From the sequence record NC_100331.1: a stretch of 64,000 bases of DNA. One strand, 5' to 3'. The DNA comes from Escherichia phage vB_EcoS_HASG4. The notes beneath the pieces are model-generated. The model did not search any database. It was given only the letters and a program-made list of their open reading frames with translations, and had not been told where the DNA came from. Positions 7,640 through 42,264 of this stretch are shown one piece after another. A program made the position numbers and the translations under genes. The first letter of the stretch is position 1; each line of letters begins with the position of its first letter.

Positions 7640-8587
7640 TTACTTGTTACGCATATCCATAATCATTTGGCCATCATAACCAGTGCCAACCACAGTCTGC
7701 GGTACACCACCTTGATACTTCTGAGCACGGATCATTTCAACTTCCAGTTGCTTCCAGCGAATCATCTCAGGAGTAATGGTACGTTGCAATGCGGCGTTAG
7801 CTTCAGCTTCTTTCTTAGCTGAGTACAGTTTAGCATCTGCGTCACGTTCATTAGCAATAGCTTGGTTGTTGCGAGCTTCACGATCTGCTTCTGCTTGTTT
7901 AACTTTTTGCTGTGCTTCCTGTTCAACACGAGCCAATTCAGCTTTCGCAGCGTTAACTTGTTCTTCACGAACTTTGGTATTCTGTACCTGTTCCATGATT
8001 ACAGGCGGCAAAGTAATATCCTGAAGGAACACTTGCTTAACTGTGTAACCATAAGGGCGTGCATACTCTTCAACTTCCTGTTGAATTGCAGTTTGCAATT
8101 GAGCCTGAATTTTAGCATCAAACAAATCTTGTGCTTTAGGAACAGACTTACCGAACTCACGAATAGTGGATAACAGCTTCTCAGTTACGTACTTATCTAG
8201 AGCCTGATCCTGAGTACCTGCATTAATACGGTTGATCGGTGCCTTAGAACCATCAAACTGCAACATAACAGTCAGGTCAACAGTGGATTTAAACTTATCC
8301 TGGCTAGGAACCTGAAGTTTATCTAATTTTACAGCAATATCTTTTGTACTAAAAGTATCGAAAGATGCAAATGGATTTACAAGATGAAAACCAGGTAATA
8401 CAGGATTAGGGTCTACTTTACCCAGAAATGTTTGGGTTTTAACCGTACCATCAGAAACAATAGTATATGAATTAAAAGCTAGGATTAAACCTGCTAAACC
8501 AACTACAGCACCAATACCCCAACGTTTAATAGTGCGAATTACTTTTTGCTCAGAAGTCAGTTCTTTCATATTTTTAGTATTAAACAT
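7640..8587 (-). CDS. SPFH/band-7 (stomatin/prohibitin/HflKC-like) membrane protein
   Basis: N-terminal transmembrane helix (IGAVVGLAGLILAF), then a band-7-like core and an Ala/Glu/Gln-rich coiled-coil tail; RBS AAGGAAA before ATG 8587. Confidence 0.65.
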   Translation of the reverse strand: MFNTKNMKELTSEQKVIRTIKRWGIGAVVGLAGLILAFNSYTIVSDGTVKTQTFLGKVDPNPVLPGFHLVNPFASFDTFSTKDIAVKLDKLQVPSQDKFKSTVDLTVMLQFDGSKAPINRINAGTQDQALDKYVTEKLLSTIREFGKSVPKAQDLFDAKIQAQLQTAIQQEVEEYARPYGYTVKQVFLQDITLPPVIMEQVQNTKVREEQVNAAKAELARVEQEAQQKVKQAEADREARNNQAIANERDADAKLYSAKKEAEANAALQRTITPEMIRWKQLEVEMIRAQKYQGGVPQTVVGTGYDGQMIMDMRNK

Positions 8588-8621
8588 ATATTTCCTTTGT
8601 TTTAGTTACAGTTAATAAAAT

Positions 8622-8696
8622 TGGCCGAGGTGACAGGATTCGAACCTGCATAAAGGAATTTAGAAGACTCCTGCCTCTCCCTTAGACTACACCCCG
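8622..8696 (-). tRNA. tRNA-Arg (anticodon TCT, tentative)
   Basis: Acceptor CGGGGTG/CACCTCG, T-arm GCAGG-TTCGAAT-CCTGT, anticodon stem GGAGT/ATTCC with loop CTTCTAA, encoded CCA. Confidence 0.55.
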
Positions 8697-9198
8697 TTTA
8701 AGTATTTTTAAGAACTCTCGTAAAAACTCTTAAAAATACAGACGATACCGGGAGAGTCATAAGTCTCACTCATTAAGTATTTCAAGACAAAATACAGTAA
8801 CGTCTATTATTTTCCAGTTTAAGTCAAGGTGACTTAGTGGTTATGTCCTGCGGTATACTGAGGACTCGGTTAGGTTAGGGTCATGACTCCCCACTTTTTT
8901 GCTGCTACTCAACAGGAGTTATCGCGAATTACCTGTGCTATTGTGCACCATTAGTGGCATCTCTCATGCCAGCATTTCCCACTTTGTGGATAGTTTGAAA
9001 AACTACTCCGATATGGAGAAAGAACTTCACTATCCTAGAATACCTTCTAAAGTTCTTCTTTAGCCTGGACATAGTTAAATCGTAATAAAACTATTCAGCA
9101 GACTGGTTGGTTAGTCTGGAACCAACTACCGCGTGGTTTAGGCAGTGCGCAACTAACCTCGGAAGCTTTTACATTAAAAGCACCAGTTATCCAGTTCT

Positions 9199-9270
9199 TA
9201 CCGACCGTAGGATTCGAACCTACATCTTCCACCAGTTACGGCTTGATAATACCGTTTATACTAGATCGGC
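9199..9270 (-). tRNA. tRNA or tRNA-like (anticodon unresolved, no encoded CCA)
   Basis: Good T-arm GTAGG-TTCGAAT-CCTAC and acceptor GCCGATC/GGTCGGT; anticodon arm not foldable by eye. Confidence 0.4.
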
Positions 9271-9493
9271 AGTGTTACTACATAAGTGATTTCCACACCC
9301 CACTATCAATAAATTAGAGAAGAGTTTAGGGGAGAGGTTTCAGACGCCTCATTTTACACGTTCTAGCCACTAACCGGGATTGCCGCCCCCTGTGTACTAG
9401 TTTTACAACTAACCCACCGACTCTATTCAATGCGCTCCGGTTGGGATTCTGCACTCAGCGTAATCGGCTCGCTGTTCTCTAATTTATGAATAT

Positions 9494-9522
9494 ATTATAC
9501 AGAATTTATAAGCATTTAGCAA
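9494..9522 (-). promoter_or_regulatory. early promoter (TTGCTA-N17-TATAAT on minus strand)
   Basis: Plus strand ATTATA at 9494-9499 and TAGCAA at 9517-9522. Confidence 0.55.
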
Positions 9523-9530
9523 ATAAATTT

Positions 9531-9965
9531 TTAGAAAAATTCACTAGCAATCAAAGCAGTTGTTTTACCATCATAACGCCCTGGAAACTCTGCCTTAATA
9601 GTTTTCATTAAGAGAGCTTTGGTAATACCTGGGTTTAATTTAACCAGTTCTGCAAAGTATTTACGAATTTCAGTTTCAGTCAGTTGACTTGGCTGATACT
9701 CTTGCAGCATGGAATAAAGCAGTTGTTCATAGTCTACATCAGTAGGGACTTTCATACCAACTTTAATAGCACGCTGCTTCGCAGTTTCTAGAGCTTTAAT
9801 CTGAGCTTTCAGATAGGCTACAAACTCGGTTCGAGTAACAACGTCTTTATTAATACGTTGCAAATCACCAATCATAGTCTGGAGATTAAGTGCCCTCTCT
9901 TTATCACCGTGAGTACGTGCTAGACTAAGCAGTCCACGAAGGGTCATTAGAATATTTTCACCCAT
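9531..9965 (-). CDS. hypothetical protein (144 aa)
   Basis: ORF-track ORF, co-oriented; no recognisable motif. Confidence 0.55.
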   Translation of the reverse strand: MGENILMTLRGLLSLARTHGDKERALNLQTMIGDLQRINKDVVTRTEFVAYLKAQIKALETAKQRAIKVGMKVPTDVDYEQLLYSMLQEYQPSQLTETEIRKYFAELVKLNPGITKALLMKTIKAEFPGRYDGKTTALIASEFF

Positions 9966-10166
9966 TATTTCATCCCCAATGCTTGGTTGAAAGATTGTTC
10001 TGTCATAACTGCTGAGACTTTGGCGAAATCAAACTTTTTAGGGTTCGTAGTGATTTCAGCAACGTTAGAAGTTTTAACCGTTTTAGTAGTACGAATACCG
10101 CGAGTGTTAACACCAATAATTACAACTGATTTCATATTTCGCTTCCTCTCATTAATTTATGAAAGT

Positions 10167-10203: not shown

Positions 10204-10671
10204 TTAAGTTTTAGTGACAACAGGCTTATAAAATGTATGTCCTTTAATCTTAGTTGTTTTCTTAAATTTCTTTGTCCAGTACGGTTTATCTTTACCACTA
10301 TGGAAGTATAAAGCTCCATGTGTAGGATCTTGTGGTAAATCAACGTAGTATATCACTCTAGCTAAATTCTTGGCGGTTTGCCAAGCCTCATCGGTTTTAT
10401 CAACTTTTGGTCTCTTAGATACCCAAGAGAACTGGTTAGACTGATATACTACTTTACAGTAGGAATCTGGAAATTTGCCGGAGTTTACACGGTTTTTAGT
10501 AACCTGTGCAACCGCCATCATTCCCTTTATGCCCTCACCACGACTCTCGAAATAGATATTTTTAGCAATGCAATCTATTTCTTTTGCATCGTGCGATGCC
10601 TGACTACTAAAGCTGAAGGTAAGGGCAGCTACTAAAAGCAAAGCTGCCTTCATTCTTTTTACTCCTGCCAA
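10204..10671 (-). CDS. secreted SleB-like cell-wall hydrolase
   Basis: Signal peptide MKAALLLVAALTFSFSSQA, then IYFESRGE...VAQVTKNRV...QFSW resembling the SleB/CwlJ hydrolase family. Confidence 0.6.
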   Translation of the reverse strand: MAGVKRMKAALLLVAALTFSFSSQASHDAKEIDCIAKNIYFESRGEGIKGMMAVAQVTKNRVNSGKFPDSYCKVVYQSNQFSWVSKRPKVDKTDEAWQTAKNLARVIYYVDLPQDPTHGALYFHSGKDKPYWTKKFKKTTKIKGHTFYKPVVTKT

Positions 10672-33656: not shown

Positions 33657-33685
33657 TTGCTTTCAACTCAGTTTTGTTATATAAT
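33657..33685 (+). promoter_or_regulatory. early promoter (TTGCTT-N17-TATAAT)
   Basis: -35 at 33657-33662, -10 at 33680-33685. Confidence 0.55.
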
Positions 33686-33715
33686 ATTTATATAAATTAA
33701 TGAGAGGGTTGCAAA

Positions 33716-33988
33716 GTGAAAAAGATAAATATAAGTACACTTAAACCTTTTCCATATATCGGACAGCCTCTCATACTCATGTGGGAGGAAAAGATTAATG
33801 GGGAAAAGTATACTAAAACTAGAATTGGATATAAACTGATTTCACTTTATTACGAAAAAGAAGTATTAATAGCTGAAATATACTCTCCATTATCGGGCAG
33901 GCTAGTAAAAACTACATATTTGCATCTTTGCAAAAATTATACGTGGCACGGATCTACCAGACAACCCACGTACTATGAGGCAGAATAA
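33716..33988 (+). CDS. hypothetical protein (90 aa)
   Basis: GTG start; stop abuts the ligase start. Confidence 0.45.
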   Translation: MKKINISTLKPFPYIGQPLILMWEEKINGEKYTKTRIGYKLISLYYEKEVLIAEIYSPLSGRLVKTTYLHLCKNYTWHGSTRQPTYYEAE

Positions 33989-34960
33989 ATGACCAATGTA
34001 AAAGAATTTATTAAACGCTGTCAAGAAGCATATTATCAGGGTATGTCTTTAATCTCTGATGAGGAGTATGATTGCCTGGTAAAACGCTTCCCGTTAGAAG
34101 AAGAGATCGGGCCTAAGGGCGATATTCCACATCTGTATCGTATGTATTCTTTACAGAAAGTTTATTATAATCGTGGAGATAAACCCCCATTTAACCCATT
34201 AGGTCAGGTAGAAACTGACAAGTTAGATGGTTGTGCGATTTCTCTATTATATATTAATGGCGAATTTGTTCAAGCACTAACTCGTGGTAATGGTATTCTA
34301 GGGAATGATGTCACAAGCAACGTAAGACTGCTGAATATCCCTAAAAAGATTTCCCAAAAAGTACCAACTCAAATCACTGGTGAAGTTCTAATTACAAAAG
34401 AAGTAGAAAATAAACGTAACTTTGCCTCTGGTGCTATTAACCTCAAAGATAGCGATGATTTCGTACAACGTATCGGGGAAGGCGGTTTAATCTTCGTTGC
34501 ATACGGTATCCAGTGTTCTGCCGAATCTGTAGGTATTACAGAATCGTATTTAAAAGATATGCTTTGGCTAGAGAATGAGAACTTCTTAACAGTTGTTAAT
34601 GTGCGTTCCTTCTTTAAATGGATTCCGACTGACGGTAAAGTTGTTCGTATTAATGACAACAACAAATTCTTCCGTGAGGGCTGGACAAATAAATTCCCTC
34701 GTGGAGCATTCGCCATTAAAGAGGATGAAGAAGGCGAAATTACAACTCTTACTAAAGTTGAGTGGCAGGTAGGGGCTTCTGGTAAAGTAACTCCAGTTGG
34801 CTATTTCGAACCGGTAATTATTGATGATGCTACAATTGTTAAAGCGACTCTTAATAACGTTGATTATATTAACTCTCTCGATCTAGAGATCGGTTGCCAG
34901 ATTCGAGTGATTCGTGCTGGTGGTGTAATCCCGTGTATAGTAGAGCGAGTATACGATTAA
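33989..34960 (+). CDS. NAD-dependent DNA ligase, N-terminal fragment (adenylation and OB domains)
   Basis: LISDEEYD near N-terminus and adenylation motif TDKLDGCAISLLY (KxDG), typical of LigA-type ligases. Confidence 0.75.
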   Translation: MTNVKEFIKRCQEAYYQGMSLISDEEYDCLVKRFPLEEEIGPKGDIPHLYRMYSLQKVYYNRGDKPPFNPLGQVETDKLDGCAISLLYINGEFVQALTRGNGILGNDVTSNVRLLNIPKKISQKVPTQITGEVLITKEVENKRNFASGAINLKDSDDFVQRIGEGGLIFVAYGIQCSAESVGITESYLKDMLWLENENFLTVVNVRSFFKWIPTDGKVVRINDNNKFFREGWTNKFPRGAFAIKEDEEGEITTLTKVEWQVGASGKVTPVGYFEPVIIDDATIVKATLNNVDYINSLDLEIGCQIRVIRAGGVIPCIVERVYD

Positions 34961-35103
34961 TACATAACCCTTTGCTACCCATCTACCATATCGGAATTAT
35001 AAAGTGGTTATTGACATTTTCGCCGCTTAGGTATATACTATTATCATTCAGTTGAGGGATAGAAAGTTATGGCGAGGGTAAGCAAAGTTAGTTAAAATTG
35101 TAG

Positions 35104-35132
35104 TTGCTAAATGCTTAAATACTTGCTATAAT
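35104..35132 (+). promoter_or_regulatory. early promoter (TTGCTA-N17-TATAAT) between the two ligase fragments
   Basis: -35 at 35104-35109, -10 at 35127-35132. Confidence 0.55.
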
Positions 35133-35162
35133 ATTTATATAAATTGATAAGGAAGAAATTTG

Positions 35163-35942
35163 ATGAAAATCGAAATTCCAACACAATGTCCCTCTTGTGG
35201 TTCTAAGCTAGATCTTGTCAACGGACAATTATTCTGTCGTAATAAGTCCAACTGTCCAGCGCAATCAAGCAAGTTAATTGAGAACTTCTGTTCAAAAATG
35301 AAGTTAAAGGGCTTTGGCCCAAAAACTATTGAGAAGCTGGAGCTGACGAAGATTTCAGAACTATTTTACCTAACCGAAGAAGATTTGGTTAGAGCCGTGG
35401 GTAGCAAGGTTGCCGCTAAGTTAATTAGCGAATTAAATACTAAAGTTCGCGGAGACATTGACTTTGGTTCAGTTCTCGGTTCTTTAGGAATCCCTCTAAT
35501 TGGAGAAGTTGCAGCAAAGAAACTATCCCAAAATTGCACTAGCTTCCATGATGTGAAGGCTGACGGCAAGGCTGGAGAAAATTACAAAGCCTGGCTAAAT
35601 TCCCCACAAGGCAAGGATGTTATTGAACTACCGTGGAAATTTTCAACTGGTGTTAAGGGCACTAAAGCTGACGTCATCATTACAGATGAATTAGTTGCCC
35701 AGCCAAATGGAATCGCGGTATGTATTACCGGATCTTTGCAAGATTTTGCAAATCGAACGGATGCAACAAACTATTTAGAAGGTCTAGGATATACGGTTAA
35801 GAAATCCGTTACCAAAGACGTCAAATACCTAATCTGTGAGGATGAATCGAAGCGTTCTTCCTCATCTTATAAGAAAGCCGAAACGAATGGGATAGAAATC
35901 CTGTCGATTAAAGAACTATTGGAGAAAAATAATAATGTCTAA
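35163..35942 (+). CDS. NAD-dependent DNA ligase, C-terminal fragment (Zn finger, HhH, BRCT-like)
   Basis: CPSCGSKLDLVNGQLFCRNKSNCPAQ Zn-finger followed by helix-hairpin-helix-like GIPLIGEVAAKKL and a C-terminal BRCT-like region. Confidence 0.7.
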   Translation: MKIEIPTQCPSCGSKLDLVNGQLFCRNKSNCPAQSSKLIENFCSKMKLKGFGPKTIEKLELTKISELFYLTEEDLVRAVGSKVAAKLISELNTKVRGDIDFGSVLGSLGIPLIGEVAAKKLSQNCTSFHDVKADGKAGENYKAWLNSPQGKDVIELPWKFSTGVKGTKADVIITDELVAQPNGIAVCITGSLQDFANRTDATNYLEGLGYTVKKSVTKDVKYLICEDESKRSSSSYKKAETNGIEILSIKELLEKNNNV

Positions 35943-36702
35943 ACTGAACTGGAACGTAGAAGGTGTAACCGAGTCTCTGAAAGCAAAAGCCACTGCTCTG
36001 GGTGTTTCTGTAATCTCTCAAGAACAAGTAGCTGCTATCGCTGCTGAACTGGCTGCTGAAACCGGCAAAGATGTTACTGCTCGCTCTGTTGGCTCTAAAC
36101 TGCGTAAAGAAGGTTTTGAAGTACAAAAAGCTAACGAAGTACAGAAATCTCCGTGGACTCCTGAGCAGGAAGCTGAACTGGTTGATTTCCTGAATGCTCA
36201 TGCTGGTCAGTATACCTATGCTGAAATCGCTGCTGCTGTAGCTGGTGGTCAGTTCGGTGCTAAACAGGTACAGGGTAAGATCCTGAGTCTGGAAATGACC
36301 GCTTCTGTTAAGCCAACCGAAAAAGCTGCTGCTGTTCGTTCCTTCACTCCGGATGAAGAAACTGATTTTGTTAATCAGGTTGTTGCTGGTGCTACTATTG
36401 AAGCTATCGCTGCTCACTTCGGTCGTAATATCAAGCAGATCCGTGGTAAAGCTCTGAGCCTGCTTCGTGAAGGTCGTATCGCTGCTATGCCGGTACAGGA
36501 AACCTCAAGTGCTAAAACTCGTGAAGATCTGTTAGAAGGTCTGGATCTGGTTAACATGACTGTTGCTGAGATCGCTGAGAAAACTGGTAAATCTGAGCGC
36601 GGTGTTAAATCTATGCTGTCTCGTCGTGGTCTGGTTGCTAAGGACTATGATGGTGCCGCTAAGCGTGCTAAACTGGATGCAAAAGCTGCGGCTGCTGAAT
36701 AA
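35935..36702 (+). CDS. abundant protein built of four tandem HTH-like repeats (255 aa)
   Basis: Four roughly 55-aa units each with ..IAA..G.....VxGK.LSL.R.G; strongly biased codon usage. Confidence 0.7.
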   Translation: MSKLNWNVEGVTESLKAKATALGVSVISQEQVAAIAAELAAETGKDVTARSVGSKLRKEGFEVQKANEVQKSPWTPEQEAELVDFLNAHAGQYTYAEIAAAVAGGQFGAKQVQGKILSLEMTASVKPTEKAAAVRSFTPDEETDFVNQVVAGATIEAIAAHFGRNIKQIRGKALSLLREGRIAAMPVQETSSAKTREDLLEGLDLVNMTVAEIAEKTGKSERGVKSMLSRRGLVAKDYDGAAKRAKLDAKAAAAE

Positions 36703-36720
36703 TCTGGTAAATTAAACCTA

Positions 36721-36753
36721 AGGGGAGGGGGCTATGCTCCTTCCCCTTTTTGC
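36721..36753 (+). terminator. rho-independent terminator
   Basis: Hairpin AGGGGAGGGGGCTATGCTCCTTCCCCT followed by TTTTTG. Confidence 0.7.
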
Positions 36754-36784
36754 ATTTAGAAGGCACGAAAGCGTGCAAAGGAGA

Positions 36785-38257
36785 ATGACCTTGTTTAACG
36801 TGCAAGCTGTAGTGTTGAAGATGCTTCTAGCTTCCGAACAGAAGCAAATAGCATTGGAAACATTCTCAAAACTGCATAAAGATCATTTTAATGACGCTTT
36901 CTCCTCAATTTACCAAGCCGTCCAGAATTATTATAAAAAATATAACACAATGCCGTCCATTGACGCACTTATGCTTGAAGCTAATAGGAACGCCCGCCTT
37001 TCTCAAGCTCTAGTCGTCTTAGCTAACACTCAAATTCCAGAAGTGAGCATGGAACAGGCACTTGAAGTCCTAGAGGCCGAATATACACAGGATTTATTCC
37101 TGAAGCTTCTAGAAACAGACGTGCTTCAAGATTTAACAATGCTGGATCAGGGAGAAATTCTCAACCGAGTTGCCTCCCTTCACTTAAAATTAGAAGAGAA
37201 AGTAACGAATACTGGAAAAGTATTCAACGCAGATAACATGCGTATTTTCCAGAGAGAAGAAGATACCAAACTGAATTTAATCGCTCTTGGTATTTGTAAT
37301 GAGTTCGACGCTCAAATTGGTTTAGCTCGCACAGAAACGTTACTGCTTGGTGGTTGGCGTGGTACTGGTAAATCCATTATCTGTTCAAACATACAGGTTC
37401 AGCAATATTTGAATGGAGATATTGCTCCATACTTCTCAATTGAGATGAAAGAACATGAAGTATTTAGACGTAATCTAGCCATGTTAGCTGGTGTATCAGC
37501 ACTAGCAATGCGTAATAATACTCTAGAAGGTGCAGCTCTGTTGAGATTAGCCAGAACTAGAGCTAGGATGTTTAACGGTGGTGAAGAGCTTTTCGATAAC
37601 TTTGTTAAACAGTACACAATGGCTAAGATGAGTGATTTCTACGATATGGAGAGTAAGCTAATAGAGGGATATGAACTACATACTCCTATGATTATCGTTT
37701 ATGACCCTGAACTGTCCATTACAACAGTTGATGTAGAATTAAATAAATTAGTTGCTAGATATGGTGATAAAGTTACAGTAGCTTTACTGGACTATATTAA
37801 CCAAACCCGACTTCCAGATTCTAAAACCATTGATATGTATGACTGGAAAGAACAGATGGTTGTTAGCTCGTCTTTCAAATCCATCTGCCAGAAACATAAC
37901 GTGGCTGGTGTAGCTCCTTACCAGATCGATCAAGATGGTAGAACACGTATGTCAAAGGGGATTCTTGATTCCGCAGACATGGCTGCTAATCTTAATGCTG
38001 CAAAAGCCGATAATGGTCAAGGTGCTATTATGTTTGACTTCGTTAAGACTCGTTCTTCTGATAGCGTGAAGTTTATGCCTAAGATGAACTGGGAAACCTT
38101 GCGGATGGATAACACTACCAACCTAGCAATGGAAGATATATCTCAAATGGAAGCTGAGTTCGTTATCCCTATTGAGAAGGATAAGCCGGCTCAACCTAAA
38201 CGTGCTAAGAAAGACAAAACTGAAAATTCAACAGGTGAACAGGCCAGCGATATATGA
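36785..38257 (+). CDS. DnaB-like replicative helicase
   Basis: Start at ATG 36785 (RBS AAGGAG); Walker A GGWRGTGKS about 200 aa in, RecA-like C-terminal half. Confidence 0.65.
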   Translation: MTLFNVQAVVLKMLLASEQKQIALETFSKLHKDHFNDAFSSIYQAVQNYYKKYNTMPSIDALMLEANRNARLSQALVVLANTQIPEVSMEQALEVLEAEYTQDLFLKLLETDVLQDLTMLDQGEILNRVASLHLKLEEKVTNTGKVFNADNMRIFQREEDTKLNLIALGICNEFDAQIGLARTETLLLGGWRGTGKSIICSNIQVQQYLNGDIAPYFSIEMKEHEVFRRNLAMLAGVSALAMRNNTLEGAALLRLARTRARMFNGGEELFDNFVKQYTMAKMSDFYDMESKLIEGYELHTPMIIVYDPELSITTVDVELNKLVARYGDKVTVALLDYINQTRLPDSKTIDMYDWKEQMVVSSSFKSICQKHNVAGVAPYQIDQDGRTRMSKGILDSADMAANLNAAKADNGQGAIMFDFVKTRSSDSVKFMPKMNWETLRMDNTTNLAMEDISQMEAEFVIPIEKDKPAQPKRAKKDKTENSTGEQASDI

Positions 38258-39144
38258 GTAGAATAACAGAACTACTTGATCTGAAAGGCATTGAATATAA
38301 AGACACAGGTGGGGACATCCTCATCTGTTGTCTCAATCCAGATCATGACGATAAACACCCAAGTTTGCGTATTGATCCTGAAACAGGTATTATGCACTGC
38401 TTGAGTTGTGGCTTCGGTAAAGGTATACCGAGCATTTACCATTATTTTAATGAGACTCAGTACAGACAGTCCCCAAGACTATCGCAGGTACGTAAAAAGA
38501 TTTCAGAGATTAGGAATGGATCAACGAATCTTGCAATTCCTGAATCTGCTTACCTTTTCGAAGGTGATTTCCGAGGTATAAGTTCTAAGACCTTGAAGAA
38601 ATATTTTGCTTTCCAACACCAAGCAGACTGGGAAGGCAGAATTGTATTCCCAATCACAGATGCTGTTGGACGCAATATCCTATTTTTGGGTCGTTCTATA
38701 AACAGTTCTGCCCCTCCTAAATACTTAGTAAAACCAAAACAAGTTTCACCACCTATTTTCCCTGTACGATATAATACTCCAGTTCTTATTCTAGTTGAAG
38801 GTATCTTTGATATGCTGAACCTAGAGGATAATGGTATAGACTATGCTTCTTGCTGCTTTGGTACACATCAGTTCACTTCAGATAACATTGCAGATAAGTT
38901 CAGTCCTTATATTATTGCTGGTGTAAAAGTTGTTGTTATCTTACTAGATAATGATGCTTCTGGTAATAAAGCTGCACAAGCATTGGCTAAGCTAATTCGT
39001 ACAAAAACGCGTTTAACACCTGTAGTTGCTAACTTTCTCCTGCCTGAAGGTAAAGATCCAGGTGATTTAAACAAAGATGAAATTGATATGTTAGCAAAAC
39101 GTATTGAAATTTTAGTTGCTGAATCGCTTAAAGATTTGGTATAA
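38254..39144 (+). CDS. DnaG-like DNA primase (Zn finger plus Toprim)
   Basis: CLNPDHDDKHPS...HCLSCG Zn-binding motif; Toprim EGIFD...LDNDASG. Confidence 0.8.
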   Translation: MSRITELLDLKGIEYKDTGGDILICCLNPDHDDKHPSLRIDPETGIMHCLSCGFGKGIPSIYHYFNETQYRQSPRLSQVRKKISEIRNGSTNLAIPESAYLFEGDFRGISSKTLKKYFAFQHQADWEGRIVFPITDAVGRNILFLGRSINSSAPPKYLVKPKQVSPPIFPVRYNTPVLILVEGIFDMLNLEDNGIDYASCCFGTHQFTSDNIADKFSPYIIAGVKVVVILLDNDASGNKAAQALAKLIRTKTRLTPVVANFLLPEGKDPGDLNKDEIDMLAKRIEILVAESLKDLV

Positions 39145-39206
39145 TATATTGGTAAGTTAGAGAAGAAACACTGAAGTTATACTTACTTACCAAGAGGAGA
39201 TTAAAT

Positions 39207-41774
39207 TTGAAAATCGCAGTAGTTGATAAAGCTCTAAATAACACTCGTTACGATAAACATTTCCAGCTATACGGCGAGGAAGTTGATGTATTCCATATGT
39301 GTAACGAGAAGTTATCTGGTCGTTTGCTTAAAAAGCACATTACTATTGGAACACCAGAAAACCCATTTGATCCGAATGATTATGATTTTGTTATACTAGT
39401 AGGTGCTGAACCTTTCCTGTATTTCGCAGGTAAGAAAGGCATTGGTGACTATACTGGTAAACGTGTAGAGTATAATGGATATGCTAACTGGATTGCGAGT
39501 ATCAGCCCAGCCCAGCTACACTTTAAGCCTGAAATGAAACCAGTTTTCGATGCAACAGTAGAGAATATCCACGATATTATCAATGGTCGTGAGAAGATTG
39601 CAAAAGCTGGTGATTACCGTCCTATTACTGACCCTGACGAGGCGGAAGAATATATCAAGATGGTGTATAATATGGTTATCGGACCTGTCGCATTCGACTC
39701 CGAAACCTCAGCACTATACTGTCGAGATGGTTATCTGCTTGGTGTTTCTATGTCTCACCAAGAATATCAGGGTGTATATATCGATTCTGATTGTCTCACA
39801 GAGGTTGCAGTATATTATCTCCAGAAAATTCTGGATAGTGAAAATCACATTATTGTTTTTCACAACCTGAAGTTTGATATGCACTTTTATAAGTACCATT
39901 TGGGACTTACCTTTGATAAAGCACATAAAGAACGTAGGCTCCATGATACTATGTTGCAGCATTATGTTCTAGATGAACGTCGTGGTACTCATGGCTTGAA
40001 ATCTCTAGCAATGAAGTATACCGATATGGGTGACTATGACTTTGAACTAGATAAGTTCAAGGAGGATTACTGCAAAGCACATAAAATCAAGAAGGAAGAT
40101 TTCACCTATGATTTAATTCCGTTTGATATTATGTGGCCATATGCTGCGAAAGATACAGATGCTACCATACGTTTGCACAACTTCTTTTTACCAAAAATTG
40201 AGAAGAATGAAAAACTTTGTAGTCTGTACTACGATGTTTTGATGCCTGGTTGCGTATTCTTGCAACGTGTTGAGGATCGTGGAGTACCTATTTCTATTGA
40301 TCGTTTGAAAGAAGCTCAGTATCAGTTAACTCATAACCTGAATAAAGCCCGTGAGAAACTGTACACTTATCCAGAAGTTAAACAGCTAGAACAAGATCAG
40401 AATGAAGCATTTAACCCAAACTCTGTTAAGCAACTTCGTGTTCTTCTGTTCGATTATGTTGGTTTGACTCCAACTGGTAAATTAACAGATACTGGTGCAG
40501 ATTCTACGGATGCAGAAGCTCTGAATGAACTGGCTACGCAGCATCCAATTGCTAAAACTCTGTTAGAGATTCGTAAGCTGACTAAGCTAATCTCTACTTA
40601 TGTTGAGAAGATTCTTCTGAGTATTGATGCGGATGGTTGCATTCGTACTGGTTTCCACGAACACATGACTACTTCTGGTCGTCTAAGTTCTTCTGGTAAA
40701 CTGAACCTGCAACAGTTACCTCGTGATGAATCTATTATTAAGGGTTGTGTAGTTGCACCACCTGGATACCGTGTAATCGCATGGGACTTAACAACTGCGG
40801 AAGTTTATTATGCTGCTGTTCTATCTGGTGATAGAAATATGCAACAGGTATTTATCAACATGAGAAATGAACCTGATAAATACCCTGACTTCCACTCTAA
40901 CATCGCACACATGGTATTTAAGCTCCAATGCGAACCTCGTGATGTTAAAAAGTTATTTCCAGCTCTGCGTCAAGCAGCTAAAGCAATCACCTTTGGTATT
41001 CTGTATGGTTCTGGCCCAGCTAAAGTAGCTCATTCTGTTAACGAAGCTCTTCTGGAACAGGCTGCTAAGACAGGCGAACCGTTTGTAGAGTGTACTGTTG
41101 CAGATGCTAAAGAGTACATTGAAACTTACTTCGGTCAGTTCCCGCAGCTTAAGCGTTGGATTGATAAGTGCCACGATCAGATCAAGAATCATGGATTTAT
41201 CTATAGTCACTTTGGTCGTAAACGTCGTCTGCATAATATCCACTCCGAAGACCGTGGTGTTCAGGGTGAAGAAATCCGTTCTGGATTTAACGCAATCATT
41301 CAGTCTGCTTCTTCTGATAGCCTCCTTTTAGGTGCGGTAGATGCAGATAATGAGATCATTTCTCTTGGCTTAGAACAAGAGATGAAGATTGTTATGCTGG
41401 TTCATGACTCCGTAGTTGCTATTGTTCGTGAGGATTTGATCGACCAATACAATGAAATCCTGATTCGTAATATTCAGAAAGACCGTGGTATCAGTATTCC
41501 TGGCTGTCCGATTGGTATTGATTCAGATTCTGAAGCTGGAGGTTCTCGTGACTATTCTTGTGGTAAGATGAAGAAACAGCACCCATCAATCGCTTGTATT
41601 GATGATGATGAATATACTCGTTACGTTAAAGAAATGCTACTTGACGCAGAGTTCGAGTATAAGAAACTAGCTGCAATGGATAAAGAGCATCCAGATCATA
41701 GCAAATACAAGGATGATAAGTTTATTGCTGTATGTAAAGATCTGGATAACGTGAAAAGGATTCTTGGTGCTTAA
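39207..41774 (+). CDS. family A DNA polymerase with 3'-5' exonuclease domain
   Basis: 855 aa; exo motif FDSETSALY; pol motifs K...FGILYGSG and VHDSVV; TTG start after GAGGAGA RBS. Confidence 0.9.
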   Translation: MKIAVVDKALNNTRYDKHFQLYGEEVDVFHMCNEKLSGRLLKKHITIGTPENPFDPNDYDFVILVGAEPFLYFAGKKGIGDYTGKRVEYNGYANWIASISPAQLHFKPEMKPVFDATVENIHDIINGREKIAKAGDYRPITDPDEAEEYIKMVYNMVIGPVAFDSETSALYCRDGYLLGVSMSHQEYQGVYIDSDCLTEVAVYYLQKILDSENHIIVFHNLKFDMHFYKYHLGLTFDKAHKERRLHDTMLQHYVLDERRGTHGLKSLAMKYTDMGDYDFELDKFKEDYCKAHKIKKEDFTYDLIPFDIMWPYAAKDTDATIRLHNFFLPKIEKNEKLCSLYYDVLMPGCVFLQRVEDRGVPISIDRLKEAQYQLTHNLNKAREKLYTYPEVKQLEQDQNEAFNPNSVKQLRVLLFDYVGLTPTGKLTDTGADSTDAEALNELATQHPIAKTLLEIRKLTKLISTYVEKILLSIDADGCIRTGFHEHMTTSGRLSSSGKLNLQQLPRDESIIKGCVVAPPGYRVIAWDLTTAEVYYAAVLSGDRNMQQVFINMRNEPDKYPDFHSNIAHMVFKLQCEPRDVKKLFPALRQAAKAITFGILYGSGPAKVAHSVNEALLEQAAKTGEPFVECTVADAKEYIETYFGQFPQLKRWIDKCHDQIKNHGFIYSHFGRKRRLHNIHSEDRGVQGEEIRSGFNAIIQSASSDSLLLGAVDADNEIISLGLEQEMKIVMLVHDSVVAIVREDLIDQYNEILIRNIQKDRGISIPGCPIGIDSDSEAGGSRDYSCGKMKKQHPSIACIDDDEYTRYVKEMLLDAEFEYKKLAAMDKEHPDHSKYKDDKFIAVCKDLDNVKRILGA

Positions 41775-42264
41775 TTTCAAATTGCCCGTCTATGCGTTAC
41801 GGGCGTTTGTATCAATTGAGCAAGAAGGTGATTATTCCGTAATTACAACAAGATATAATAAATATGTGCTAGATAACAGGAAGTTGCCTGGCACGTTTTC
41901 TCAACGTAGGCTTATTCTATTTGAGAAACGGAAAGAATTACCATACAAGCTCTATCCTATTAGAGGTAGAATATCAATGTTGTCTCAATTAGTTGGGTCA
42001 AAGCGTAACCAATTTATAGATTCTGATGGAAATCTTATTAATTGGAAGAAAACTACGTTCTATGACGTTGTCACCTCTAAAGTTTTGCATTCAGCTAGAA
42101 TTTATAATGGAAAATACCAATGCTATGTGGCTAAAGTCCCTTATCCATTTGTATTATCCTACGTTCCAGCTTACATAAGCTATATTCTGGTAAATAATAG
42201 CCCTGTTATTTACCAAGTCCATCAAGAGGAGCCTGAAATTCCTAGACTTAGAATAAAATTATGA
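41764..42264 (+). CDS. hypothetical protein (166 aa) with AT-rich codon usage
   Basis: ORF-track ORF; codon usage (aga/ata/tta) differs from flanking replication genes. Confidence 0.5.
   Translation: MVLNFKLPVYALRAFVSIEQEGDYSVITTRYNKYVLDNRKLPGTFSQRRLILFEKRKELPYKLYPIRGRISMLSQLVGSKRNQFIDSDGNLINWKKTTFYDVVTSKVLHSARIYNGKYQCYVAKVPYPFVLSYVPAYISYILVNNSPVIYQVHQEEPEIPRLRIKL

What the first reader, a model, noticed from the sequence alone, without database searches (positions are those of the whole stretch)
7640..8587. Phage-encoded SPFH/band-7 membrane protein
The protein has an N-terminal transmembrane helix, an SPFH-like core and an Ala/Glu/Gln coiled-coil tail, the architecture of HflK/HflC/flotillin proteins that scaffold membrane microdomains and modulate FtsH. 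In a lytic phage it might regulate a host membrane protease or organise a membrane site for DNA entry or superinfection exclusion.
Basis: partly seen in the sequence, partly recalled or inferred. Interest (0 to 1): 0.45.

Follow-up and report, generated by a model that had tools for sequence, protein, structure and literature searches.

The report
Phage T5-type SPFH membrane-cage protein
This is a real, well-conserved but non-essential gene of T5-like phages encoding a membrane-anchored SPFH (prohibitin/HflK-like) scaffold protein; its domain identity is already in the databases and its role in infection is still unknown.

Summary
Window 7640-8587 (minus strand) encodes a 315-aa protein with an N-terminal TM helix, an SPFH/Band-7 core (Pfam PF01145, 68 bits against a 23.6 cut-off), a 76-residue helix, a second helix and a short tail. 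All top structural matches are cage-forming SPFH proteins. The window is phage vB_EcoS_EASG3 and the gene is the ortholog of T5.080.

This is not new. The GenBank record already notes Band_7, and orthologs were listed as SPFH in 2006. New details:
- The inherited "lipoprotein" label is wrong here, because the protein has no cysteine.
- A few relatives carry true lipoboxes at the same position, which argues that the SPFH body is periplasmic.
- It is not HflK or HflC: a single gene, no NfeD partner, nearest to prohibitin/erlin/QmcA.
- The helix length predicts a cage of about 24 subunits. Helix indels are always +11 or +22 residues.
- The gene is its own early transcription unit.
- It is deleted in the propagated T5 st(0) mutant, yet kept in about 99% of T5-like genomes under strong purifying selection (dN/dS 0.02-0.10).

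Function is unproven. My best guess is a periplasm-facing cage that modulates inner-membrane protein quality control, for example through FtsH. Interest is modest.

The parts
7640..8587 (-). Coding sequence of the 315-aa SPFH/Band-7 protein (ortholog of T5.080 / YP_006908.1); the stop codon is 7640-7642
   Evidence: ORF list; Pfam Band_7 68.4 bits; 99% identical to T5.080 by tblastn; annotated EASG3_00101 with a Band_7 note
8522..8587 (-). Residues 1-22: basic N-terminal tail (6 K/R, net +4), predicted to be cytoplasmic
   Evidence: Charge count. In 30 of 39 family members there are more K/R on the N-terminal flank than on the C-terminal flank; mean net charge is +2.4 against +0.3
8468..8521 (-). 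Residues 23-40: single transmembrane anchor (WGIGAVVGLAGLILAFNS). It is not a lipoprotein signal peptide, because the protein has no Cys
   Evidence: Hydropathy maximum and zero cysteines; helix in the model; relatives with a lipobox Cys at the equivalent position
8012..8467 (-). Residues 41-192: alpha/beta SPFH core (SPFH1+SPFH2), including the invariant motif VPSQDKxK
   Evidence: Pfam residues 52-225; model strands and helices at pLDDT 77-90; invariant columns; Foldseek matches to SPFH domains
7778..8005 (-). Residues 195-270: long wall helix (CC1), 76 residues
   Evidence: Model helix 194-269 in model numbering, which is protein numbering minus 1. All indels here across the family are +11 or +22 residues. 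The length predicts about 24 subunits by the published regression
7718..7771 (-). Residues 273-290: second helix (CC2)
   Evidence: Model helix 272-289; conserved TITPEMIxWKxL motif
7643..7717 (-). Residues 291-315: conserved C-terminal tail (Y.GGVPQTVVG..Y.G.MIMDMR.K), low confidence in the monomer model; candidate cap element of the cage
   Evidence: pLDDT below 50 in the monomer model but strongly conserved. SPFH C-termini form the cage cap in solved complexes
8593..8597 (-). Shine-Dalgarno AAGGA, 5 nt before the ATG
   Evidence: Read directly from the sequence
8622..8696 (-). tRNA-Arg(TCT) in the leader of the same transcription unit
   Evidence: ARAGORN; Rfam tRNA 49.3 bits; same arrangement in T5
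9198..9271 (-). tRNA-like element (anticodon ACT) in the leader, in the region annotated 'RNAX' in T5
   Evidence: ARAGORN; Rfam tRNA 36.8 bits; T5 annotation
9494..9522 (-). Sigma-70-type promoter-like site TTGCTA-17-TATAAT (10 of 12), at the position of T5 early promoter P16-17
   Evidence: Consensus scan; T5 annotation of promoter P16-17 directly downstream of T5.081. A consensus match only; the number of sites found in the region is not above the shuffled expectation
7585..7616 (-). Intrinsic terminator (13-bp stem, 8 G-C pairs, T-run) ending the SPFH unit. A second hairpin just downstream serves the convergent operon
   Evidence: Terminator scan; sequence; annotated terminator in EASG3 and 'efficient bidirectional terminator' in T5

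Best explanation
The gene encodes an accessory, early-expressed inner-membrane protein of the SPFH superfamily. SHOWN: It has one N-terminal TM anchor, an SPFH core, a 76-residue wall helix, a second helix and a conserved tail. This is the protomer plan of cage-forming SPFH proteins (prohibitin, erlin, HflK/C, QmcA, stomatin). It forms a one-gene transcription unit: sigma-70 early promoter, tRNA leader, ORF, terminator. It is dispensable for propagation in the laboratory, yet retained in nearly all T5-like phages under strong purifying selection. It has been exchanged among unrelated virulent phages and some Gammaproteobacteria. INFERRED: The N-terminus is cytoplasmic and the SPFH body lies in the periplasm. 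With no second paralog and no NfeD partner, the protein assembles by itself into a domed cage of roughly 24 subunits on the periplasmic face of the inner membrane. MOST LIKELY MECHANISM (speculative): The cage fences off patches of inner membrane and so changes the fate of membrane proteins during infection. The most plausible route is capturing or insulating the host AAA protease FtsH or its substrates. HflK/C does this in the same compartment, and prohibitins do it with m-AAA proteases. The benefit would be conditional, depending on host or environment, and not essential. The confidence value refers to the whole statement including the mechanism. The identity and architecture alone I hold at 0.95 or above, the periplasmic orientation at about 0.8, and the FtsH link at about 0.3.
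For: Identity: Pfam Band_7 at 68.4 bits. AlphaFold model with pLDDT 77. The top 50 Foldseek PDB hits are all SPFH cage proteins aligned over about 270-325 columns, with erlin1/2 at 2e-14, prohibitin, HflK/C, stomatin and QmcA. Sequence hits to QmcA and prohibitin-1/2.
Topology: positive-inside bias in 30 of 39 members. Lipoprotein signal peptides with a lipobox Cys replace the anchor end in L118, L058, L048 and P0115, and lipoproteins are exported.
Homo-oligomer: a single copy per genome, 739 places in 738 records. There is no second SPFH ORF in the window; the next best score is 3.3 bits. No NfeD domain was found in the neighbours.
Cage size: CC1 of 76 aa gives 23.8 subunits by the regression in PMC12624060. 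Helix indels come only in units of 11 residues, as expected if helix register in a packed helical wall must be kept.
Expression: promoter, tRNA leader, SD and terminator.
Accessory but selected: the T5 st(0) deletion removes wild-type 33,681-41,878, which includes T5.080. Phage NG_S8 has an in-frame internal deletion. About 437 records carry the gene at >=80% identity, against about 442 carrying the T5-type DNA polymerase. dN/dS is 0.017-0.10.
Mechanistic analogy: HflK/C is the periplasm-facing, TM-anchored SPFH cage of E. coli and it modulates FtsH. Prohibitin and erlin, the closest structural matches, are linked to AAA-protease or ERAD quality control on the non-cytosolic face.
Against: No direct evidence links this protein to FtsH. 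It has no detectable sequence similarity to HflK or HflC (absent at E<=1 and at E<=0.001) and no NCBIfam HflK/HflC hit. The one published HflK-FtsH contact (HflK Arg191) cannot be mapped at under 20% identity. The bacterial relatives sit in unrelated housekeeping neighbourhoods that give no functional clue. Oligomerisation and topology are predictions; the monomer model has pTM 0.49 and an unresolved C-terminus. No benefit of FtsH modulation for a virulent phage has been demonstrated, and st(0) grows without the gene.
Confidence: 0.4

Rival explanations
1. Membrane-homeostasis scaffold without a protease link. The cage stabilises or organises the inner membrane (lipid order, respiratory complexes, proton-motive force) so that the infected cell stays energised until lysis. 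It would act like a phage-supplied extra dose of a prohibitin/HflKC-type organiser.
For: Loss of E. coli HflK/C lowers respiration, ubiquinone and ATP, in parallel with prohibitin defects. The protein is closest to prohibitin/erlin. Chromosomal relatives sit among housekeeping genes such as trpBA-accD-folC. The gene is non-essential but nearly universally retained, as expected for a burst-size optimiser.
Against: In E. coli the HflKC respiration phenotype is itself attributed to altered protein stability, so this is not cleanly separable from the protease model. There is no evidence that T5 infection limits membrane organisation, and host HflK/C is presumably still present during infection.
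Confidence: 0.25
2. Competition or counter-defence factor. The cage sequesters or blocks inner-membrane proteins used by host abortive-infection effectors, or by superinfecting phages for DNA entry. This is one of the first reader's alternatives.
For: The gene is an early, accessory, horizontally mobile single-gene cassette in hyperplastic regions of unrelated virulent phages. This is the typical profile of anti-defence and exclusion genes. It is dispensable on laboratory hosts but conserved in nature.
Against: There was no hit in PADLOC, although that library holds host defence proteins and not phage counter-defence proteins. High sequence conservation with dN/dS below 0.1 is unlike the fast evolution common in arms-race genes. 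Chromosomal orthologs lie in housekeeping contexts in many Gammaproteobacteria. T5 already has Llp for receptor blocking (my own knowledge).
Confidence: 0.15
3. Envelope module acting together with the secreted SleB-type cell-wall hydrolase. The SPFH cage would position or restrain the periplasmic hydrolase (T5.083 homolog, window 10204-10671) at the inner membrane.
For: The Hydrolase_2 gene lies within 0.18-2.2 kb of the SPFH gene, on the same strand, in four phage lineages and in three different arrangements: T5-likes, a ~153-kb type, Proteus Privateer-type, and E. coli phage PJNS034. Both products are predicted to act on the periplasmic side; the hydrolase has a signal-peptide-like N-terminus.
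Against: The hydrolase is absent within +/-5 kb in all T4-like carriers, in K470, in L111, in L116-L119 and in all 61 bacterial loci. Hydrolase_2 genes are common in phages, with 1226 records. T5 st(0) deletes the SPFH gene but keeps the hydrolase. The two genes are in different transcription units in T5.
Confidence: 0.1
4. Cytoplasm-facing QmcA/YqiK/flotillin-like microdomain scaffold. The topology would be opposite to the one I infer.
For: The best single sequence hit in the PDB is E. coli QmcA, at 4.5e-6 and 2.5e-7 with the profile. Topology has not been measured.
Against: The QmcA match with the profile covers mainly the helical region, profile positions 155-253. No NfeD partner gene is present. 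The positive-inside bias favours N-in. Relatives with lipoprotein signal peptides must be exported.
Confidence: 0.1

Closest known systems
Prohibitin (PHB1/PHB2) and erlin1/2 complexes
   Same: These are the best structural matches over the full length: erlin 2e-14 and PHB about 4e-13 to 1e-12. They are also the only families besides QmcA with significant sequence matches across the SPFH core: PHB2 at 7e-5 and PHB1 at 8e-4. They share the protomer plan of N-terminal TM anchor, SPFH, CC1, CC2 and C-terminal cap. The body lies on the non-cytosolic face of the membrane, as inferred here.
   Different: Prohibitin and erlin are eukaryotic hetero-oligomers of two paralogs with 22 and 26 subunits. 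The phage has one gene. Identity is only 14-19%.
E. coli HflK/HflC-FtsH holoenzyme
   Same: Same compartment and anchoring as inferred here: inner membrane, N-terminal TM helix, periplasmic cage. It has 24 subunits, and about 24 are predicted here. Foldseek E-values are 1e-12 to 1e-8.
   Different: There is no detectable sequence similarity and no NCBIfam HflK/HflC hit. There is a single gene in place of an hflK-hflC pair. HflK's long cytoplasmic N-terminal extension is absent, since the tail here is 22 residues. FtsH binding is untested.
E. coli QmcA-YbbJ (SPFH-NfeD) complex
   Same: The best sequence E-value in the PDB. It is a homo-oligomeric cage made of a single SPFH protein with 26 copies and a single N-terminal anchor.
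   Different: QmcA works with an adjacent NfeD-family partner, and none is present here. The opposite membrane face is inferred for the phage protein.
Orthologs already annotated in phages (T5.080; 44RRORF098c, Aeh1ORF064c, RB43ORF139c; Proteus phage Privateer 'band-7-like membrane protein'; PHROG 200)
   Same: The same family: 99% identity to T5.080 and PHROG 200 at 4.7e-86. These were listed as SPFH/Band 7 in 2006 and in many GenBank records.
   Different: Nothing substantive. Many records call it 'lipoprotein', which the cysteine-free T5/EASG3 sequence cannot be.
SPFH/Band-7 proteins of other viruses (Vibrio, Rhizobium and Streptomyces phages; Tupanvirus, Marseillevirus, Pandoravirus)
   Same: The same fold and overall architecture by Foldseek against BFVD, with E-values from 9e-18 to 1e-12. 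All are functionally uncharacterised as far as the searched literature shows.
   Different: Only 13-22% identity, so these are probably independent captures of cellular SPFH genes.

Membership tests
SPFH / Band 7 superfamily (Pfam PF01145) | Sequence match to the Band_7 profile above the curated gathering score | tested here: met
   68.4 bits against a cut-off of 23.6, E=1.1e-18, residues 52-225 covering profile positions 13-176 of 176
SPFH / Band 7 superfamily (Pfam PF01145) | Alpha/beta SPFH fold followed by long CC1 and CC2 helices and a C-terminal segment (the cage-protomer plan) | tested here: met
   AlphaFold model with pLDDT 77. The 50 best PDB matches are all SPFH cage proteins, probability 1.0, most aligned over about 270-325 columns
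SPFH / Band 7 superfamily (Pfam PF01145) | Assembly into a ring or dome-shaped oligomer on a membrane | not testable with these tools
   Only a monomer could be modelled. About 24 subunits are predicted from the CC1 length. The 11-residue quantisation of helix indels is consistent with a packed helical wall
HflK / HflC (FtsH modulators) | Recognised by the HflK or HflC equivalog models, or by detectable sequence similarity to HflK/HflC | tested here: not met
   No NCBIfam family at E<=1. HflK/HflC chains in the PDB were not matched at E<=1 with the sequence or at E<=0.001 with the profile
HflK / HflC (FtsH modulators) | Two adjacent paralogous genes whose products form heterodimers | tested here: not met
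   One copy per genome. No second SPFH ORF in the 64-kb window; the next best score is 3.3 bits. The rest of the genome outside the window was covered only by tblastn
HflK / HflC (FtsH modulators) | N-in, TM-anchored, with the body in the periplasm | tested here: inconclusive
   Supported by the positive-inside bias and by lipobox-bearing relatives, but not measured
HflK / HflC (FtsH modulators) | Physical association with FtsH | not testable with these tools
   The only reported contact (HflK Arg191 with FtsH residues 62-64) cannot be transferred at under 20% identity
SPFH-NfeD pairs (QmcA-YbbJ, YqiK-YqiJ type) | Adjacent NfeD-family partner gene | tested here: not met
   No NfeD domain in the flanking ORFs of the window, Aeh1 or PJNS034 or in the Morganella and Methylophagaceae loci. 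No neighbour is conserved across all lineages
Prohibitin family | Closest sequence and structure relationship to PHB1/PHB2 | tested here: inconclusive
   PHB2 at 7e-5 and PHB1 at 8e-4 across the SPFH core, and among the top structural hits. However, QmcA scores better by sequence and erlin better by structure. 'Prohibitin-like' is the safe wording, not membership
Bacterial lipoprotein (the label inherited from T5.080 / PHROG 200) | Signal peptide ending in a lipobox with an invariant Cys | tested here: not met
   The protein contains no cysteine. 33 of 39 aligned relatives also have none. True lipoboxes occur only in a few distant members: L118, L058, L048 and P0115
Known anti-phage defence proteins (PADLOC) | Match to a defence-system protein model | tested here: not met
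   No family at E<=0.1

The most novel reading that the evidence does not exclude
A virulent phage makes its own periplasm-facing homo-oligomeric SPFH cage that takes over or insulates the host FtsH quality-control microdomain, or neutralises membrane-acting abortive-infection or exclusion factors. This would reprogramme which inner-membrane proteins survive during infection. It would be the first assigned function for the widespread virus-encoded SPFH proteins, and a new class of phage host-takeover factor.
Probability: 0.2. Interest if true: 0.65.

Novelty: already known. Interest (0 to 1): 0.3.

Why it matters
SPFH proteins are universal membrane organisers whose functions are still debated, and virus-encoded copies occur from T5 to giant viruses without any assigned role. 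T5 offers an unusually clean test system. It has a single gene in its own transcription unit, a ready-made deletion strain (st0), near-universal natural retention under strong purifying selection, and a well-understood host with three SPFH systems of its own. Finding the condition under which the gene pays would say what a minimal, partner-less periplasmic SPFH cage does. It could also reveal a new way in which phages manipulate inner-membrane proteostasis or integrity. On the practical side, the widespread 'lipoprotein' annotation of this family should be corrected.

Tried and rejected
1. HflK/HflC orthology was rejected: no NCBIfam hit, no sequence match to HflK/C chains, and a single gene.
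2. An NfeD partner, as in QmcA/YqiK operons, was not found in the window, Aeh1, PJNS034 or the bacterial loci.
3. The lipoprotein label was rejected for this protein, which has no Cys.
4. Membership of a defence system: no PADLOC hit.
5. A neighbour conserved across all lineages: clustering of flanking ORFs in 18 loci found none. Only lineage-specific synteny and the partial Hydrolase_2 link appeared.
6. A prophage origin for the bacterial copies was rejected for the two loci examined, which are housekeeping or ordinary chromosomal contexts.
7. Literature searches for T5.080, T5p078, SPFH + T5, SPFH + Tequintavirus, and SPFH + phage-encoded found no functional study.
8. In the 2026 membrane-nuclease paper, FtsH was used only as a labelling control, so it is irrelevant here.
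9. The PhageMaP Bas63 essentiality map has no SPFH entry.
10. AY543070 turned out to be wild-type T5 and not the deletion strain. AY692264 is the st0 record.
11. Mapping the HflK Arg191-FtsH contact onto the phage protein was abandoned as unreliable at this divergence.
12. Multimer modelling was not possible with the tools available.

Full report
**What is there.** The window is 100% identical over the tested segment to Escherichia phage vB_EcoS_EASG3 (MK373799.1), a T5-like Tequintavirus. The ORF at 7640..8587 (minus strand, 315 aa) is real. It is preceded by an AAGGA ribosome-binding site 5 nt upstream of the ATG. It is the ortholog of T5 gene T5.080 at 99% identity.

**Domain and fold.**
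- Pfam places an SPFH/Band_7 domain on residues 52-225, at 68.4 bits against a gathering score of 23.6.
- An AlphaFold model built from a 39-sequence family alignment has mean pLDDT 77. It shows an N-terminal TM helix, an alpha/beta core, a 76-residue helix, an 18-residue helix and an unresolved C-terminal tail that is nevertheless strongly conserved.
- The 50 best Foldseek matches in the PDB are all SPFH-superfamily proteins: erlin1/2, prohibitin, HflK/C, stomatin, QmcA, flotillin and major vault protein. Most align over about 270-325 columns.

**Is it new?** No.
- The EASG3 record itself notes "conserved domain Band_7 pfam01145".
- Several related records say "SPFH domain / Band 7 family protein", "band-7-like membrane protein" or "prohibitin family protein".
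- The orthologs in phages 44RR, Aeh1 and RB43 were tabulated as SPFH/Band 7 in 2006 (PMC1524935).
- The function is not known. A June 2026 paper states that the reason for an SPFH gene in a phage genome "remains unclear" (PMC13239085).
- I found no paper on T5.080/T5p078.

**Correcting the annotation.** RefSeq T5 and PHROG 200 call this family "lipoprotein". The EASG3/T5 protein contains no cysteine, so it cannot be lipid-modified. 33 of 39 aligned relatives also have none.

A few distant members do carry textbook lipoprotein signal peptides whose lipobox Cys sits exactly where the TM anchor ends in the others. These are viral locus L118 (…LALLLGSC|SIETV), a Myxococcota chromosome L058 (…LGVLSC|CVTTV), L048, and the Morganella phage protein P0115. 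Lipoproteins are exported. This is therefore independent evidence that the SPFH body of the family faces the periplasm. It agrees with the positive-inside bias: more K/R on the N-terminal flank in 30 of 39 members, with net charge +2.4 against +0.3. This orientation is inferred and not measured.

**Which kind of SPFH protein?** It is not HflK or HflC.
- No NCBIfam model matches.
- HflK/C chains in the PDB are not detected by sequence.
- There is one gene per genome, and no second SPFH ORF in the window.
- It is not a QmcA/YqiK-type operon either: no NfeD partner was found beside it in the window, in other phages or in bacterial relatives.
- By sequence the nearest solved proteins are QmcA (mostly through the helical region) and prohibitin-2/1 (across the SPFH core). 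By structure they are erlin and prohibitin.
- I call it a partner-less, prohibitin-like, TM-anchored SPFH protein.

**Cage inference.** Solved SPFH complexes show a linear relation between CC1 length and subunit number: y = 0.1782x + 10.22, accurate within about two subunits (PMC12624060). The 76-residue helix gives 23.8, which is about a 24-mer like HflK/C. All length variation in this helix across the family is exactly +11 residues (8 sequences) or +22 residues (1 sequence), produced by duplication of an 11-residue unit. That quantisation, about three helical turns, is what one expects if helix register in a tightly packed wall must be preserved. Oligomerisation itself could not be tested.

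**Expression and dispensability.** The gene is the only coding sequence of its transcription unit.
- A sigma-70-like promoter (9522→9494, TTGCTA-17-TATAAT) sits at the position of T5 early promoter P16-17.
- The leader carries a tRNA-like element and tRNA-Arg, and is followed by the ORF.
- A 13-bp-stem terminator (7616→7585) abuts the terminator of a convergent operon.

The record for the T5 st(0) deletion mutant (AY692264) marks its recombination junction here. Alignment shows that wild-type positions 33,681-41,878 are missing. T5.080 (39,791-40,738) lies inside that interval, and tblastn finds no trace of the gene around the junction. Phage NG_S8 carries a natural in-frame deletion fusing residues 1-18 to 274-315. 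So the gene is not needed for adsorption, DNA entry, replication, assembly or lysis on laboratory hosts.

Even so, about 437 phage records keep it at >=80% identity, against about 442 with the T5-type DNA polymerase at >=80%. dN/dS is 0.017-0.10. This is the signature of a conditionally valuable accessory gene.

**Distribution and origin.**
- The family is compact. It has 951 representative clusters at E<=0.001 and 171 at E<=1e-10 among 1.84 billion.
- It is spread across unrelated virulent phages: T5-likes, Slopekvirus/RB43-type and Aeromonas T4-likes, ~90-kb Proteus/Cronobacter phages, a ~153-kb type, Vibrio phages, and a 65-kb coliphage.
- Chromosomal relatives exist in Morganella and Providencia (57-59% identity) and in methylotrophic and other Gammaproteobacteria (33-41%). 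The two neighbourhoods I examined are ordinary chromosomal contexts.
- In a neighbour-joining tree, the enterobacterial and Aeromonas phage genes and the Morganellaceae genes form one clade (100/100 bootstrap). Other phage copies sit on separate deep branches. This indicates repeated phage-bacterium exchange.
- SPFH proteins with the same architecture also occur in many other viruses, including giant viruses.

**Mechanism.** What is shown: the identity, the architecture, the early single-gene expression unit, dispensability, and selection. What is inferred: the periplasmic orientation and a homo-oligomeric cage of about 24 subunits.

For function I commit to the following, at about 0.3 for the FtsH-specific part. 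The cage encloses patches of inner membrane from the periplasmic side and alters membrane-protein quality control. Most plausibly it captures or insulates FtsH or its substrates. This rests on analogy with HflK/C, the only periplasm-facing SPFH cage of E. coli, and with prohibitin and erlin, the closest structural relatives.

The rivals are:
- A protease-independent role in membrane and respiratory homeostasis.
- A counter-defence or exclusion role.
- Cooperation with the nearby secreted SleB-type hydrolase. That gene is linked to the SPFH gene in four phage lineages in three different arrangements, but it is absent in the T4-likes and in all bacterial loci.
- A cytoplasm-facing, QmcA-like orientation.

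None can be decided computationally. The experiments that would decide are listed under next steps.

**Verdict.** The finding is an already-annotated protein family of unknown function. It is of modest interest as it stands, with a reasonable experimental path to something more interesting.

Noticed in passing
window 10204-10671 (-); also L006 2748-3197, L097 6332-6823, L098 6343-6837, L099 6593-7015, L100 6872-7306: A SleB-type cell-wall hydrolase (Pfam Hydrolase_2; T5.083 homolog, with a signal-peptide-like N-terminus) lies 0.18-2.2 kb from the SPFH gene, on the same strand. This holds in four phage lineages in three different arrangements. It is absent within +/-5 kb in T4-like carriers and in all 61 bacterial loci. 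RefSeq calls it 'endolysin', but it sits in the early region, and the T5 st0 deletion leaves it intact.
   Followed up: partly
window 7640-8587 (-); T5.080 in NC_005859; PHROG 200: The 'lipoprotein' product name propagated through RefSeq and PHROGs is wrong for the T5/EASG3 protein, which has no cysteine. Genuine lipobox signal peptides exist only in a few distant family members: L118, L058, L048 and P0115.
   Followed up: yes
window 5825-6877 (+), 6899-7315 (+), 7325-7519 (+): A convergent three-gene operon (T5.077-T5.079 homologs) ends at the same bidirectional terminator. The 350-aa product has an acidic Asp/Glu run, a Gly-rich hydrophobic stretch (GFGGFGGFGG) and a Q/N/S/T-rich tail with a CCCE motif. 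The 138-aa product is extremely Gln-rich. Neither has a Pfam hit, only PHROGs of unknown function. All three genes lie inside the T5 st0 deletion.
   Followed up: partly
window 9198-9271 (-): A tRNA-like element with anticodon ACT (ARAGORN 'tRNA-Ser'; Rfam tRNA 36.8 bits) lies in the leader of the SPFH transcription unit. In T5 this region is annotated as 'RNAX, stable RNA with unknown functions'. ACT is an unusual anticodon, so it may be a degenerate or non-canonical tRNA.
   Followed up: no
L008 2962-3129 (Escherichia coli phage NG_S8, LC788711): A natural in-frame deletion of the SPFH gene leaves a 55-aa ORF that fuses residues 1-18 to 274-315. A different small ORF follows tRNA-Arg. This is independent evidence that the gene can be lost.
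   Followed up: yes
L011-L023 (Morganella and Providencia chromosomes): Chromosomal copies at 57-59% identity cluster with the enterobacterial phage genes (100/100 bootstrap), not with the other bacterial homologs. In M. morganii the gene sits between a TetR/ADH pair and a HlyD/ABC-C39 bacteriocin-export pair. This suggests transfer between phages and Morganellaceae in one direction or the other.
   Followed up: partly
Alignment A1, columns about 263-296 (protein residues about 245-250): Length variation in the long helix is quantised. Eight sequences have +11 residues and one has +22, through duplication of an 11-residue unit resembling A[YF]A.[KR]Q[ED]AEA[KR].
   Followed up: yes
window 9531-9965 (-) and 9965-10135 (-): Upstream of the SPFH unit lie a YqeY/GatB-like protein (below the Pfam threshold at 21.4 bits; PHROG 'tRNA amidotransferase') and a 56-aa DUF7616 protein. 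The T5 st0 deletion ends inside the YqeY-like gene.
   Followed up: no
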